From a virus (lineage: Duplodnaviria > Heunggongvirae > Uroviricota > Caudoviricetes), in IMG/VR virus record IMGVR_UViG_2534681938_000031: DNA of 10,931 nucleotides. The stretch is one strand, 5' to 3'. This document shows positions 6,001-10,931 of this stretch, piece by piece (position 1 is the first letter of the stretch; each line of letters begins with the position of its first letter). Position numbers: made by a program.

Positions 6001-9000
6001 TGGCTAAACATCAAAAAGGCGATGTTGCCAGCGTATCCGGCACGATGCAGGTAAGCCAGTGGACCGGACAGAACGGAGAAACGCGGCAGGGCTGGCAGGT
6101 TATCGCAGACAGCGTAATCAGTGCCCGCGCGGCACGTCCAGGCGGGAACAGACGCAAAACCACAGGCACACAGGGTAATCAGCCACCAGCGGGAGGCGAT
6201 GACCCTTACGGTGATGATATTTCGTTCTGAGGGGGTGACGATGGTACATGACCGCATAGCGGAGGAACTGGAGGCGAAAGGCTTTTACCGGAGGGCGGCG
6301 GCGCGATGGGGTGAAGTCATGCAGCTGGTGGAGACAGACAAGGAACGGCATCACATCACGATGCGACGGCTGGAATGTTCAAGGAAGGCACAGAGGGCAC
6401 CGGAGCCGCCGGATAATTTCGGAGACCTGAAAAAGGCAGTCGATCGCACTTATGCCGAAATGGGTATAGATGGTGCTGGTGATGAAATATGGCGCAATTA
6501 CCAGGACAGCTAATCAAACAGCCGGAGAAATCCGGCTTTTTTTGCACCAGTTGAAACGGTATGGCGCATTACCGGGTTTTCGTCACGGTCAGGCATAGTT
6601 ACTATCTGAAACAAACAGACACAACAGAGGAAAAAACAATGCCGATGAAATTTGATGAGATATTAAAACAGCGTGATAAATACCATGCTGACAACATGGA
6701 GACGATGAGCATCAATGATTACCGCGCATTCCTGGAGACGGGCGCACTGATTGAAAAGGATCAGCATGGTTTTGTGAGATGTGCTCTATCCGGTGAAATG
6801 CTGGCGGTAAATCCTGAACAGATAGATGCATTGATAGAATTTCTGAAAGAGATCAGAGACTGAGCCAGCACACAGCACACATAGCCGGAGCAATCCGGCT
6901 TTTTTGCGCCCAAAAAAAGCCCGATAAGGTCAGAGGGTTCTTATCGGGCTTTTGCATATGAGGTTTTTGGATGCACTGGCGTTCGTGATCGGGATAATCA
7001 TTTCATAATTTGCAACATAACTCAATATCATTGCATAAAATGCAATTCTGATTATAATCAGGACTGGATAAACATCCAGTTATGATTTTTTTAGTCGAAG
7101 AGGAATTTCTTACTATGGCTGAAGAGAAAAAAAGCGGTGTTTCGGTGTACATAAGCCCCGAAATCGTGGAGGTGCTCAAGCAGCGCCACAAAAAAACTAT
7201 GAAGCTGGCGTTGCGGCTGGACTGGATCCGCTGATGACGCCGGAGCCGTCGATAGGTTCACTTGTACGCTCTTATTTACTTGCGGCGCTTGGGATGCATA
7301 AAAATTATGGGGGTGAATAATGGCAGGCAAAGCAACGGCACTTAACACTAACCAGCTTTTCATGTACCTGAATCGCGGGGATATTGCGGATTTTAAATTC
7401 AGCCCTCTGTTTACCACGCTGTTTTTCCCGAACGTGGCGACATTCAGCACGCAAAACATCATGCTGGATACCCTGGACATTGAAGAAGTCACCATGTCGG
7501 CGTTTTGTTCGCCTATGGTGGGTAGCCAGGTTCAGCGCGATAAAGGGTACGAAACCAGCACAATCAAACCTGGCTACATGAAGCCAAAGCACGAAATCGA
7601 TCCAACGAAAACCATCATGCGCATGGCTGGAGAAGATCCGGCACAGCTTAACGACCCTACCTATCGCCGTATGCGCCTGATTACTGGCAACATGCGCCGC
7701 CAGATAAACGCCATTAAGGCACGCGTGGAATGGCTGGCGGTGAATGCGGTAACGACCGGAAAAAACATCATTGAGGGCGAAGGCATAGAACGCTATGAAA
7801 TCGACTGGAAAATACCGGAAAACTGCATCATAGAGCAGGCCAAGGGTAAAAAATGGTCCGAGCAGGATAAAGACATGCACGACCCAATCTATGACATCGA
7901 GCTTTATGCTGATCAGGCTGGTTGCCCCGCAAACGTCATGATTATGGGCGCTGAGGTATGGCGCACATTACGCAGCTTTAAAAAATTCCGTGAGCTGTAC
8001 GATCTTTCCCGTGGTTCAGAATCCGCCGCCGAACTGGCCTGTAAAAACCTGGGCGAAGTGGTGAGCTTTAAAGGCTATCTTGGTGATCTGGCCCTTATCG
8101 TCTATTCCGGCAAATACACTGACAGCGATGGTACCGAAAAATATTTCCTTGAGCCTGATTTGCTGGTCCTGGGTAACACCAACAATAAAGGGCTGGTGGC
8201 CTATGGTGCGATAATGGATCAGGAAGCGGTAAGAACGGGCGCAACACAAAACATGTTTTACCCGAAAAACTGGATTGAGGACGGCGATCCGGCGATTGAG
8301 TACGTGCAGACACACAGTGCACCGCAGCCGGTACCGGCAGATATTCGCAAATTTGTTACCGTCAAAATTGGTTAACGGGGGGATTCTATGGACACTCCAT
8401 ACATTGAGTTATTTGCAGGCAGTCAGCAGGTATCCACGACGTTGGTACATTTTGCCGCTGATGCTGGCGTTATTCAGGAATTTACCCCGCTGATGCTGGC
8501 AGACAATGGCGAGTTTAAGCCGTGGGATGGTCAGGAATCTGGCAAGGCTGTTTATCTGACCTCGTACCCTGTGGACACGTCAAAGCAGAAATCAGCACAG
8601 TGTTACAAGACGGGGATATTCAATATTGCCGCCGTTAACTGGCCTGAGAGCGTCGACACCGATGCGAAAAAATGCGCCGCCTTTGCGGGTTCCGGCGTAT
8701 CCGTTCAGCCGCTGGCCCGATAAGCAGGGGGAACGATGGCAACGAATGAAAGCATCATGACGCTACCGCTGGCGAGTAAATTTAAAGTCGAAGCGCGGGC
8801 AATGGCTGACAGAGGTTTATCAACCTATGAGGCCGTATATCAACTAAACAAACTGGAAGAGCAGGACAAGCCGTGCGCTGATGCGATTATGGCGCTTCAT
8901 GAGCATAAAGACTATCAGCCGCTGTTGCGTGCAATGGCAAACGTGCCTTGTATCGATGTTGGTACGGCTAAAAGCATCCTTAGCATGACCATAGAGCAGG

Positions 9001-10931
9001 AACGTCCGAAGGTTGCGCCGGAACTTACCGCAGCCTTTGAAAACTTTATGGACATGCACAGCCCGCAAGCCGTATCAGCTGGCATGGCATACGATGGCAG
9101 AAACCAGGGCGATGACGGCGACATCGATCGCATACTGAAAACCATCTGAGACAAGGCCGGAGAAATCCGGCTTTTTTACGGGTCCTTCCTGGAATTATGG
9201 CCCGTTACGGGGCGGCGACCTCGCGGATTTTCGCTATTTATGAGCCTTTTCAGGGTGGTGGTGGTGGTTTTGTTGTTTGATCTATCTTTATGAATGAAAA
9301 GGGAAAGATGCAAGCAATACACCAACCTGAAGCAGTAATTAAGTTGGTGTATTAATGAAATCTCATCTGATGAACAAAAAAAACATGGCGAAAAGCTGCC
9401 GTGTAAGTGCGACAGCGTTCGACAAGTGGGGAGTAACTCCCGTTGAGCGTAAAGGCCGTGAGGCGTTTTATGATGTTGCCAGCGTGATAGAAAATAGGGT
9501 TAACAATGCAATTAGCCAGCTTATAAACGACAAAGGCGAGATTGACGATGATGAACTTTTACGAGTCAGGATCAGATTACTGACAGCACAGGCAGAGGCG
9601 CAGGAACTTAAAAACGATCGCGATCGCGGTGACGTGATTGATACTGAGTTTTGCCTGTACGCGCTTTCAAAGCTGGCGAGTCAGATTTCATCAATCATGG
9701 ACAGCCTCCCGCTTACTATGCAAAGGAGCTTCCCACAGATTACCCCCGCCATGCTGGACAGGCTTAAAAGGGAAGTGGTTAAAGCCTGTAATGCCAGTGC
9801 CAGAGTTGCCGACAACCTCCCACAGATACTGGCTGATTACTTGAAAGAAACAACCGGAAACGTACCGGAAAAGTTGCTACAGAAGAAAGGCGAGTAACAG
9901 ACGCGCAATTATTGAACAAAAATGAGAAAGGATCTGATAATGGCATTTTCTGGCTAAAATGCCTCGTGTCAGATCCTTTCTTTTTTAATATTTTCATTGT
10001 TAAACAGTCTGTTACAGAGAAGAAGATCGGATCTGACTTTTGCCGGAAAATTCTCATAAACAGATAAAAACCGCGAGGTCGCCGCCCCGTAACGGGCCAT
10101 AATTCCAGGAAGGACCCGACGACACCAGACTATCAGAGCGATGGGGGCACAATGACAGAAGCCGAACTACTGGGATTAATCCGCCGCGTCGCCGGAATCA
10201 GCCAGCAGCATGACGAACAGGCCACACAGCCGGACAGCGTGACCGCTGAAAATTATGTGCGTGTTGTAGCGGAAGTGATGCGCCGTGATGGTATAGAACT
10301 TAATGGCGTTGATATGCGCAACATACGGAACCGCGTTCTTGAAATGCTGGCCTACAATCGCCGCGTTGAACTGTATCGGGAGAAAGAAAAATAACGTACC
10401 ACTGGAAGAAGCCGGAACGGCTGCGGCGGTAACTTGCTGATATTCCCGATAACGCAAAATTGCGCTGGCTACATCCTCACATCTGAGGACTGTTAATCAG
10501 AAGGCCGGAATATATTCACAAACTACGAAATTTTCGTAGTTTAATTAATGGTCTGAACCGCCCCGGGTTTCCTGGAGAGTGTTTTATCTGTGAACTCAGG
10601 CTGCCAGATCATCGTTTCCGATGGAAGCATAATAAGCTTTTTCTGCTTCTGCCGGAGGAGTATGGCCCAGCCTTCCCAGCAATCGTCGATTGTTATACCA
10701 GTCCACCCACGTTAGTGTGGCCAGTTCCACTTCTGCACGGTTTTTCCAGCTCTTACGGTGTATTACCTCCGCTTTGTAAAGACCATTGATGCTCTCAGCC
10801 ATCGCGTTGTCATACGAGTCGCCTGTACTCCCTGTTGATGCCAGTAATCCGGCTTCTTTTAGTCGCTCCGTATAGGCCAGTGACACATACTGAGAGCCTT
10901 TATCGCTGTGATGGATGGTGCCAGACGGACG

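What the first reader, a model, noticed from the sequence alone, without database searches (positions are those of the whole stretch)
8736..9149. Unknown 137-aa protein where a scaffold or size determinant would sit
It directly follows the gpE-like and gpD-like genes inside the same terminator-bounded operon and matches no lambda head protein I can recall (not FI, FII, W or Nu3 by sequence). In an element smaller than its helper, a protein here is a natural candidate for capsid size redirection, scaffolding or an adaptor between the island's shell and the helper portal.
Basis: inference. Interest (0 to 1): 0.4.

Follow-up and report, generated by a model that had tools for sequence, protein, structure and literature searches.

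The report
Satellite-encoded mini Nu3-like capsid scaffold
The "unknown" 137-aa protein is a cut-down, stand-alone relative of the phage lambda scaffolding protein Nu3, so this E. coli phage satellite carries a capsid protein, a decoration protein and a scaffold-like protein together, and the scaffold gene has never actually been knocked out.

Summary
The ORF at 8736-9149 is real: 137 aa, ATG start with a Shine-Dalgarno, last gene before a strong terminator and the cos1 site. It is 96% identical to c1501 of the model satellite EcCICFT073. Residues ~46-121 are homologous to the C-terminal scaffolding domain shared by lambdoid gpC protease and Nu3 (PHROG 53 C-terminus E 5e-9; natural helper's gpC 37% identity, E 3e-10; profile-profile with lambda 97% probability, E 6e-11). 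FI, FII, W, portal and connector folds do not match. The protein has one clear Nu3 repeat, possibly a second degenerate one, then a disordered acidic linker and a terminal helix. It lacks the protease-overlapping half of Nu3.

It always travels with the island's gpE-like and gpD-like genes (598/598/596 of 5,426 E. coli genomes). dN/dS is 0.28, and two motifs (IMxLPLASKF, IDRILKTI) are held by synonymous-only change.

Most likely it is the cognate internal scaffold for the island's own capsid protein. This is inferred, not shown. Published data argue against lambda interference or size redirection. The published "c1501::tetA" allele leaves the gene intact.

The parts
7082..7319 (+). Small gene that opens the operon (68 aa in other islands; phrog_3255, weak RHH_3 match). 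It is frameshifted here by loss of one A in a poly-A run.
   Evidence: A7 here versus A8 in L008. In CFT073 and L008 the gene ends in a TAATG overlap with the MCP start.
7320..8375 (+). Island gpE-like major capsid protein (c1499 orthologue), 351 aa.
   Evidence: Pfam Phage_cap_E E 5.5e-50; 43% identical to lambda E and 45% to the helper prophage E; no phage in the collection above 47.5% identity.
8388..8723 (+). Island gpD-like head decoration protein (c1500 orthologue), 111 aa.
   Evidence: Pfam HDPD E 5e-18; 36% identical to lambda D.
8736..9149 (+). The finding: a 137-aa stand-alone Nu3-like scaffolding-domain protein (c1501 orthologue; phrog_1999).
8754..8783 (+). N-terminal invariant motif IMxLPLASKF (aa 7-16), at the start of a possible degenerate first repeat (aa ~5-44).
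   Evidence: Invariant in alignment A1. Against the 40%-identity orthologue it shows 6 synonymous changes and 1 conservative replacement. Repeat status is only suggestive.
8871..9011 (+). Nu3-type helical repeat (aa 46-92): ADAIMALHE..LLRAMANVPCIDVGTAKSIL.
   Evidence: Repeat-unit HMM 14.7 bits, E 1e-6; aligned to the helper gpC repeats and to lambda gpC 357-400. This is the fastest-evolving segment, dN/dS 0.40.
9024..9083 (+). Block TAAFENFMDMHSPQAVSAG (aa 97-116), shared with the helper gpC/Nu3 (TAMFEHFMANHSPAAVQGG) and lambda (TALDRLMQGAPAPLAAG).
   Evidence: Not conserved in the diverged orthologue P0040.
9117..9146 (+). C-terminal helix DIDRILKTI (aa 128-137) after a disordered acidic linker (aa 112-125). 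Candidate capsid-binding tail.
   Evidence: The last six residues RILKTI are invariant across A1 (I130 also; D131 varies, D/N/E), and IDRILKTI is identical in the 40%-identity orthologue P0040. Against that orthologue the last 8 codons show 3 synonymous and 0 non-synonymous changes. Predicted helix 128-136. Equivalent position to the phage tails VKMLMAMP and NDLLNTPV.
9153..9177 (+). Intrinsic terminator closing the capsid-gene operon.
   Evidence: (-18.3 kcal/mol, z -2.45), followed by a T6 run.
9210..9221 (+). cosN (cos1) identical to lambda GGGCGGCGACCT, 61 nt after the stop codon of the finding.
   Evidence: cos1 and cos2 of EcCICFT073 are described in PMC6092414.

Best explanation
The gene encodes a cut-down, stand-alone version of the scaffolding domain that lambdoid phages place at the C-terminus of their head protease gpC and of the nested scaffold Nu3. 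It keeps one clear Nu3 helical repeat (aa 46-92), probably a second degenerate repeat at the N-terminus, the conserved FxxFM..SP block, an acidic disordered linker and a short terminal helix. It has lost the protease and the protease-overlapping half of Nu3. It is co-transcribed with the island's own gpE-like capsid protein and gpD-like decoration protein. Proposed mechanism (inferred): it acts as the cognate internal scaffold or assembly chaperone for the island's capsid protein. Its invariant C-terminal helix would dock on the inner face of that protein, as scaffold C-termini do in P22 and 80alpha. Its helical repeats would self-associate and/or contact helper components (portal gpB, protease gpC). 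This would let island capsid subunits assemble into, or co-assemble with, helper-nucleated procapsids. It would then be removed by the helper protease, since the island encodes none. What is shown: homology, gene structure, linkage and purifying selection. What is inferred: the binding partners and the scaffold activity.
For: Homology: phrog_53 'head maturation protease' profile positions 495-567 of 583 match aa 46-119, E 4.7e-9. BLASTP gives 37% identity and E 3e-10 to aa 416-493 of the 501-aa gpC of the CFT073 icd prophage, the natural helper (helper identity from PMC10111431). tblastn against phages hits only features annotated Nu3. An exhaustive search of 1.84e9 proteins finds, outside the family, only a phage Nu3 fragment followed by D-E-FI. 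hhalign against a Nu3-tail family with lambda as master gives 97.1% probability, E 6e-11. Among all lambda and helper head proteins only gpC matches, once per repeat. Module: the order 68 aa-MCP-gpD-target is constant in about 80 loci. The genes occur in 598, 598 and 596 of 5,426 genomes. All three show similar divergence from phage counterparts (45%, 36%, 37%), and the same phages are the nearest for both MCP and target. Selection: dN/dS 0.28, 81 of 82 intact, with synonymous-only divergence in the two motifs. Shape: all-helical, disordered acidic linker, terminal helix, pLDDT 76. Lambda Nu3 binds itself, gpC and gpE, and is needed for gpB incorporation (PMC3224144).
Against: There is no direct evidence of binding or scaffold activity. 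Deleting the presumed partner genes c1499 and c1500 changed neither transfer nor lambda interference of EcCICFT073, and the island was packaged at phage-genome length (PMC6092414). The whole module is therefore dispensable under laboratory conditions. The target evolves faster than the MCP: 40% versus 85% identity in locus L005. Target-MCP distance correlation does not exceed what linkage predicts. The structure model is only moderately confident and matches no solved scaffold. In this particular window the first gene of the operon is frameshifted.
Confidence: 0.5

Rival explanations
1. Competitor or decoy scaffold (CpmB-like). The protein uses its Nu3-like domain to occupy the helper capsid protein's or portal's scaffold-binding sites. 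It would displace the helper Nu3/gpC and so interfere with helper head assembly or change capsid size.
For: Its closest relative is the C-terminal domain of the natural helper's own gpC/Nu3. There is precedent in SaPI1 CpmB, which competes with the 80alpha scaffold for one site on the capsid protein (PMC5644958). The repeat region evolves fastest (dN/dS 0.40). The diverged orthologue sits in an island with a different cos sequence, as expected if part of the protein tracks the helper.
Against: pBAD18-c1501 did not reduce lambda plaquing; only c1503 (rppA) did (PMC6739421). DNA packaged with lambda was phage-sized (PMC6092414). The extreme tail (RILKTI) differs from the helper tails (MLMAMP, LLNTPV).
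Confidence: 0.2
2. Portal adaptor. The protein mainly links island capsid subunits to the helper portal or protease initiator complex, reproducing the Nu3-gpB function, and does not scaffold the shell itself.
For: Lambda Nu3 is required for gpB incorporation and interacts with gpC (PMC3224144). The island has no portal or protease. The helper-like central part of the protein is the part that diverges between islands with different cos sites.
Against: It is not known which part of Nu3 contacts gpB. The half of Nu3 that overlaps the protease is missing here. No experimental data exist.
Confidence: 0.15
3. Decaying relic of a captured phage late-gene segment, with no present function.
For: c1499 and c1500 deletions have no phenotype. 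It is less constrained than its neighbours (dN/dS 0.28 versus 0.11-0.14). A natural 93-aa internal-deletion variant exists (P0027). The upstream gene is frameshifted in this window.
Against: 81 of 82 copies are intact, dN/dS is well below 1, and the motifs are preserved through synonymous change at 40% overall identity. The gene is retained in every island that carries the MCP.
Confidence: 0.1
4. Head-tail connector protein, as NCBI names many members.
For: The source name 'phage head-tail connector protein' appears on many homologues.
Against: No Pfam or NCBIfam connector family is hit. There is no similarity to lambda or helper W or FII. No connector fold appears in the PDB or BFVD searches. 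The name probably descends from the old label 'head-tail preconnector' for gpC/Nu3 (seen); this last point is my inference.
Confidence: 0.03

Closest known systems
Lambda gpNu3 / C-terminal domain of gpC (and the longer three-repeat version in the CFT073 icd prophage, PhiR12, Gifsy-like phages)
   Same: Homologous helical repeat (IMxL.EA.G.E.LA..LA..PGMT...A..IL), FxxFM..SP block, acidic linker and short hydrophobic C-terminal tail. Encoded next to the E and D homologues.
   Different: It is a stand-alone gene, not nested in a protease gene. It lacks the first ~110 residues of Nu3 and the middle repeat. Gene order is E-D-X, not C/Nu3-D-E. It has a distinct tail (RILKTI) and N-terminal motif (IMxLPLASKF). 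It is carried by a satellite with no portal or protease. Identity is only 37% to the nearest phage protein and undetectable by BLASTP against lambda.
SaPI1 CpmB (satellite scaffold that competes with the 80alpha scaffolding protein)
   Same: A small helical satellite protein related, through its C-terminal part, to the helper's internal scaffold. It works like a scaffold by analogy.
   Different: CpmB acts on the helper's capsid protein and makes small capsids. Here the satellite brings its own capsid protein, no small capsids were seen with lambda, and expression alone does not hurt lambda. No sequence relationship was tested or is expected.
SaPIbov5 Ccm / PmCI172 capsid homologues (satellite-encoded MCP homologues)
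   Same: A satellite that encodes a homologue of the helper's major capsid protein.
   Different: Those systems have no reported accompanying scaffold homologue. Ccm redirects size, whereas the EcCICFT073 MCP homologue has no known phenotype.
Capsid-forming PICIs (cf-PICI, EcCIEDL933 type)
   Same: PICIs that encode capsid-building proteins of their own.
   Different: cf-PICIs carry a full head set (MCP, protease, portal, connectors, HNH, TerS, TerL) and steal only tails. This island has only MCP, decoration protein and mini-scaffold (plus TerS or Rpp), so it would still need the helper's portal, protease, TerL and connectors.
Lambda gpFI (positional analogue: about 130 aa, follows E)
   Same: Similar size and position at the end of the head-shell genes.
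   Different: No sequence relationship (hhalign probability 0.1%).

Membership tests
gpC/Nu3 C-terminal scaffolding domain of lambdoid phages (C-terminal part of phrog_53) | Sequence homology to the repeat plus tail region | tested here: met
   E 4.7e-9; 37% identity, E 3e-10; E 4.5e-5 against 1.84e9 proteins; hhalign 97.1%, E 6e-11; profile E 9e-14 to helper gpC; lambda gpC 357-400.
gpC/Nu3 C-terminal scaffolding domain of lambdoid phages (C-terminal part of phrog_53) | Encoded in-frame inside the 3' part of the S49 protease gene C (nested gene) | tested here: not met
   It is a stand-alone ORF with its own Shine-Dalgarno. No S49 peptidase is present anywhere in the window.
gpC/Nu3 C-terminal scaffolding domain of lambdoid phages (C-terminal part of phrog_53) | Full Nu3 architecture (N-terminal ~110 aa overlapping the protease fold, plus linker, repeat(s) and tail) | tested here: not met
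   Alignment A2 shows the protein starting at the first repeat and lacking the middle repeat. Lambda Nu3 is 201 aa versus 137 aa here.
gpC/Nu3 C-terminal scaffolding domain of lambdoid phages (C-terminal part of phrog_53) | Gene order C/Nu3-D-E within a complete head module | tested here: not met
   The order here is E-D-X in all ~80 loci. Phages have Nu3-D-E-FI.
gpC/Nu3 C-terminal scaffolding domain of lambdoid phages (C-terminal part of phrog_53) | Scaffold behaviour: needed for procapsid assembly, binds MCP, portal and protease, removed before DNA packaging | not testable with these tools
   Needs genetics and biochemistry. No clean deletion has been published, since c1501::tetA leaves the ORF intact.
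phrog_1999 / EcCICFT073 c1501 family | Full-length sequence match and synteny after c1499/c1500 homologues | tested here: met
   phrog_1999 E 1.7e-68; 96% identical to the CFT073 137-aa protein; c1501 listed as 137 aa; synteny.
Head-tail connector proteins (gp6-like Phage_connect_1; lambda W / FII) | Sequence or fold similarity to a connector family | tested here: not met
   No Pfam or NCBIfam hit. No match to W or FII of lambda or the helper. Fold searches negative.
Lambda gpFI DNA-packaging chaperone | Sequence similarity to FI of lambda or the helper phages | tested here: not met
   phmmer and hmmsearch E > 1; hhalign probability 0.1%.
Satellite capsid-size redirectors (CpmB, Sid, TcaP, Ccm) | Causes satellite-sized small capsids or excludes the helper genome | not testable with these tools
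   Published data for the orthologous island show phage-sized DNA with lambda (PMC6092414) and no interference by c1501 alone (PMC6739421). Other helpers have not been examined.
Anti-phage defence proteins (PADLOC) | Match to a defence-system model | tested here: not met
   No hit at E <= 0.01.

The most novel reading that the evidence does not exclude
EcCICFT073-type PICIs carry a minimal three-part shell kit (gpE-like capsid protein, gpD-like decoration protein, Nu3-derived mini-scaffold). This kit assembles satellite-specific or chimeric procapsids on the helper's portal/protease initiator. That would be an evolutionary and mechanistic intermediate between classical PICIs, which steal whole capsids, and capsid-forming PICIs, which steal only tails. 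Its benefit would appear only with certain helpers or conditions, for example helpers whose E or C gene is interrupted by an embedded PICI, limiting helper capsid protein, or host defences that sense helper capsid protein. The conserved C-terminal helix would bind the island's capsid protein, and the fast-evolving repeat region would adapt to the helper.
Probability: 0.2. Interest if true: 0.75.

Novelty: new variant of a known kind. Interest (0 to 1): 0.45.

Why it matters
The capsid and decoration homologues of the best-studied Gram-negative PICI have had no phenotype since 2018, and the third gene of the operon was simply "hypothetical". Recognising it as a Nu3-type scaffold domain makes the operon a coherent shell-assembly set: capsid protein, decoration protein and scaffold. 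That gives a concrete, testable hypothesis for why about 11% of complete E. coli genomes, including O157:H7, keep the module under purifying selection. It also corrects a likely misreading of the literature. The widely used marked island "c1501::tetA" is not a c1501 mutant, so the key experiment has not been done. If the module builds or modifies capsids, it would be a missing link between capsid-stealing and capsid-forming satellites. It would also be a small natural example of a scaffold domain separated from its protease.

Tried and rejected
- Pairwise BLASTP against lambda Nu3 gave nothing. The relationship only appears through lambdoid homologues and profiles.
- Pfam, NCBIfam and PADLOC gave no hits.
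- The head-tail connector and FI/FII/W assignments were rejected.
- The one-genome-per-species scan found no relatives.
- The N-terminal half as a second Nu3 repeat is in register in MAFFT and in the structure model, but it is not significant by HMM (75/1000 and 22/1000 shuffles). I keep it as suggestive only.
- The Mantel test for target-MCP co-evolution gave r 0.40, the same as for target-gpD, so linkage explains it.
- I first took 'c1501::tetA' as a disruption phenotype and rejected that after mapping the primers.
- I considered that the invariant C-terminus might be a recombination junction or a cos-related DNA constraint. I rejected this because the codons differ synonymously.
- Literature searches for any link between PICIs and Nu3, or for later work on c1499-c1501, found none.
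Full report
**What is there**

The window is an EcCICFT073-type phage-inducible chromosomal island (PICI) of E. coli, 99.9% identical to O157:H7 chromosomes. Its genes in order are:
- integrase (1-1230) and AlpA (1595-1783);
- an AAA_25 replication protein (4388-5371), SSB and a PerC homologue;
- an operon of a small gene (7082-7319), a gpE-like major capsid protein (7320-8375), a gpD-like decoration protein (8388-8723) and the finding (8736-9149);
- a terminator (9153-9177) and cosN (9210-9221);
- a Nu1-like small terminase (9355-9897), an inverted second cosN (10076-10087) and an IS3 fragment.

The ORF is exactly as described: 137 codons, ATG with a GGGGGA Shine-Dalgarno. 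It is 96% identical to a 137-aa protein of CFT073 at the same position. The supplementary tables of Fillol-Salom et al. 2018 list that protein as c1501 (137 aa), between c1500 (decoration) and c1502 (60 aa), with c1503 being RppA.

**It is a real, selected gene**

- In 82 related loci, 81 copies are intact with identical start and stop codons.
- dN/dS is 0.28, against 0.14 for the capsid gene and 0.11 for the decoration gene.
- Among 5,426 complete E. coli genomes the capsid, decoration and target genes occur in 598, 598 and 596 genomes.
- The order 68 aa-MCP-gpD-target is constant in about 80 loci. The gene after the terminator varies: Nu1-like TerS, RppA or neither.
- The family is extremely narrow. 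An exhaustive HMMER search of 1.84 billion representatives found one full-length cluster and one 40%-identity orthologue in the same synteny (P0040, L005). Outside the family it found only a phage Nu3 fragment. No relative was found in one-genome-per-species representatives.

**What it is related to**

Pfam, NCBIfam and PADLOC give nothing, and BLASTP against lambda Nu3 gives nothing. Several independent results nevertheless point to the C-terminal domain shared by the lambdoid head protease gpC and the nested scaffold Nu3:
- The PHROG 'head maturation protease' profile matches residues 46-119 through its extreme C-terminus (positions 495-567 of 583, E 4.7e-9).
- Residues 49-131 are 37% identical (E 3e-10) to residues 416-493 of the 501-aa gpC of the CFT073 icd prophage. 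That prophage is the natural helper of EcCICFT073 (PMC10111431).
- tblastn against 50,697 phage records hits only features annotated Nu3.
- A profile-profile comparison of the target family with a Nu3-tail family that includes lambda gives 97.1% probability, E 6e-11.
- Among all head proteins of lambda and the helper, only gpC matches the target profile. The helper gpC is hit once per repeat (310-359, 365-404, 415-492) and lambda gpC at 357-400, inside Nu3. FI, FII, W, B, D and E do not match.

The shared element is a helical repeat of about 35-45 aa (IMxL.EA.G.E.LA..LA..PGMT...A..IL). It is present once in lambda and three times in the helper. It is followed by an FxxFM..SP block, an acidic stretch and a short hydrophobic tail.

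**Anatomy**

With the phage sequences added to the alignment, AlphaFold gives mean pLDDT 76 (80-91 over residues 1-90). The model has two similar three-helix units (H5-9/H17-25/H30-44 and H47-52/H58-68/H75-89), helix 95-108, a disordered acidic linker at 112-125 and a terminal helix at 128-136.

MAFFT places residues 7-44 on the first phage repeat and 47-137 on the last repeat plus tail. A natural 93-aa variant is deleted exactly between ARAMA and LRAMA. The N-terminal repeat is not statistically significant on its own, so I treat it as probable, not shown.

Two short motifs are the most conserved parts of the protein: IMxLPLASKF (aa 7-16) and the C-terminal tail, whose last six residues RILKTI are invariant and whose last eight, IDRILKTI, are identical in the 40%-identity orthologue. 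Against that orthologue the tail codons differ at 3 synonymous and 0 non-synonymous sites. The N-motif differs at 6 synonymous sites and 1 conservative replacement. The middle of the gene falls to 23-46% nucleotide identity. The conservation therefore acts on the protein and does not reflect a recombination junction or a DNA signal. That diverged island also has a different sequence at the cosN position. This suggests, weakly, that the variable middle of the protein tracks the helper while the two motifs track a constant partner. The island MCP is 85% conserved in that locus.

**What it is not**

Fold searches find no connector, scaffold or other solved fold. The NCBI label 'phage head-tail connector protein' has no support. 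By my inference, it probably descends from the old name 'head-tail preconnector' for gpC/Nu3. It is not a full Nu3: it is not nested in a protease gene, it lacks the protease-overlapping half, and the gene order is E-D-X, not Nu3-D-E.

**Mechanism**

Established knowledge:
- Lambda Nu3 and gpC share their C-terminal domain. Nu3 self-associates, interacts with gpC and gpE, and is needed for portal incorporation (PMC3224144).
- In P22 and 80alpha, scaffold C-termini dock on the capsid protein (from my own knowledge for P22). [quoted passage not shown]

By inference, the most likely role is a cognate mini-scaffold for the island's own capsid protein. It would dock through the invariant terminal helix, use its repeats for self-association and/or contact with the helper's portal-protease initiator, and be removed by the helper protease.

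Supporting this, the three island proteins are about equally diverged from phage counterparts (45%, 36%, 37%). The same phages (PhiR12/PhiR5) are nearest for both MCP and target, and no phage has an MCP above 47.5% identity. This is as expected for a co-adapted set.

**Constraints from published experiments**

- Deleting c1499 or c1500 affected neither transfer nor lambda interference, and lambda-packaged island DNA was phage-sized (PMC6092414).
- c1501 cloned alone in pBAD18 (pJP2216) did not reduce lambda plaquing; only c1503 did (PMC6739421).

These results argue against a CpmB-like interference or size-redirection role, at least with lambda. They also show that the module is dispensable in the laboratory.

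The marked island 'c1501::tetA' is not a knockout. Its recombineering arms end at the c1501 TGA and resume at the next base. The gene itself has therefore never been tested by deletion.

**Verdict**

The scaffold interpretation is supported by homology, size redirection is not supported, and a portal-adaptor role remains open. The protein is a new variant of a known kind: a stand-alone, truncated Nu3-type scaffolding domain carried by a satellite next to its own capsid and decoration genes. Interest is moderate, because the homology gives a clear hypothesis and experiment for a module whose function has been unknown since 2018.

Noticed in passing
window 7082-7319 (poly-A run near 7165-7171): The small first gene of the capsid operon is 68 aa in CFT073 and in IMG/VR loci, where it ends in a TAATG overlap with the MCP start. 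Here it is frameshifted by loss of one A (A7 versus A8) and truncated to about 40 residues (from MAEEK; the mechanical ORF from the upstream ATG at 7082 is 50 aa). This could reduce translational coupling to the MCP in this O157-type island, or it could be a sequencing error.
   Followed up: partly
L003 47438-47560 (CFT073) = window 9090-9210: The published marked island 'EcCICFT073 c1501::tetA' carries tetA immediately after the c1501 stop codon, between the gene and its terminator/cos1. c1501 is intact, so strains with this allele are not c1501 mutants.
   Followed up: yes
window 9210-9221 (+) and 10076-10087 (-): There are two exact copies of lambda cosN (GGGCGGCGACCT) in inverted orientation, flanking the Nu1-like gene. 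They correspond to cos1 and cos2 described for EcCICFT073.
   Followed up: partly
window 9355-9897: The position held by RppA (c1503, 144 aa) in CFT073 is occupied here by a full-length 180-aa Nu1-like small terminase (36% identical to lambda Nu1). Across ~80 islands this slot alternates between Nu1-like, RppA-like or neither, while the capsid operon upstream stays constant.
   Followed up: partly
window 6520-6537, 6883-6900, 9153-9177: Nearly the same hairpin (AGCCGGAGAAATCCGGCT plus a T-run) is used three times as a terminator-like element between island modules.
   Followed up: no
L005 2277-2380: The diverged island that carries the 40%-identity orthologue has no lambda-type cosN at the equivalent position (GAGGGACGGCAGACGCGC there). 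It probably uses a different helper.
   Followed up: no
P0027 (93 aa; E. coli): A natural variant of the protein has an exact internal deletion between ARAMA (aa 20-24) and LRAMA (aa 64-68). This is consistent with recombination between two internal repeats.
   Followed up: partly
window 6121-6513 (probable start near 6241): The island encodes a PerC-family transcriptional activator (Pfam PerC E 1e-42) just upstream of the capsid operon. It could regulate that operon or host virulence loci.
   Followed up: no
window 10596-10886 (-): The C-terminal part of an IS3-family transposase lies at the right edge of the window. Related genomes carry IS1203/IS629 insertions in this region.
   Followed up: no
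L002 39150-40655 and L003 12907-14412: The lambdoid prophages of CFT073 have a 501-aa gpC with three copies of the Nu3 repeat, where lambda has one. Repeat number in this scaffold domain varies among lambdoid phages.
   Followed up: partly
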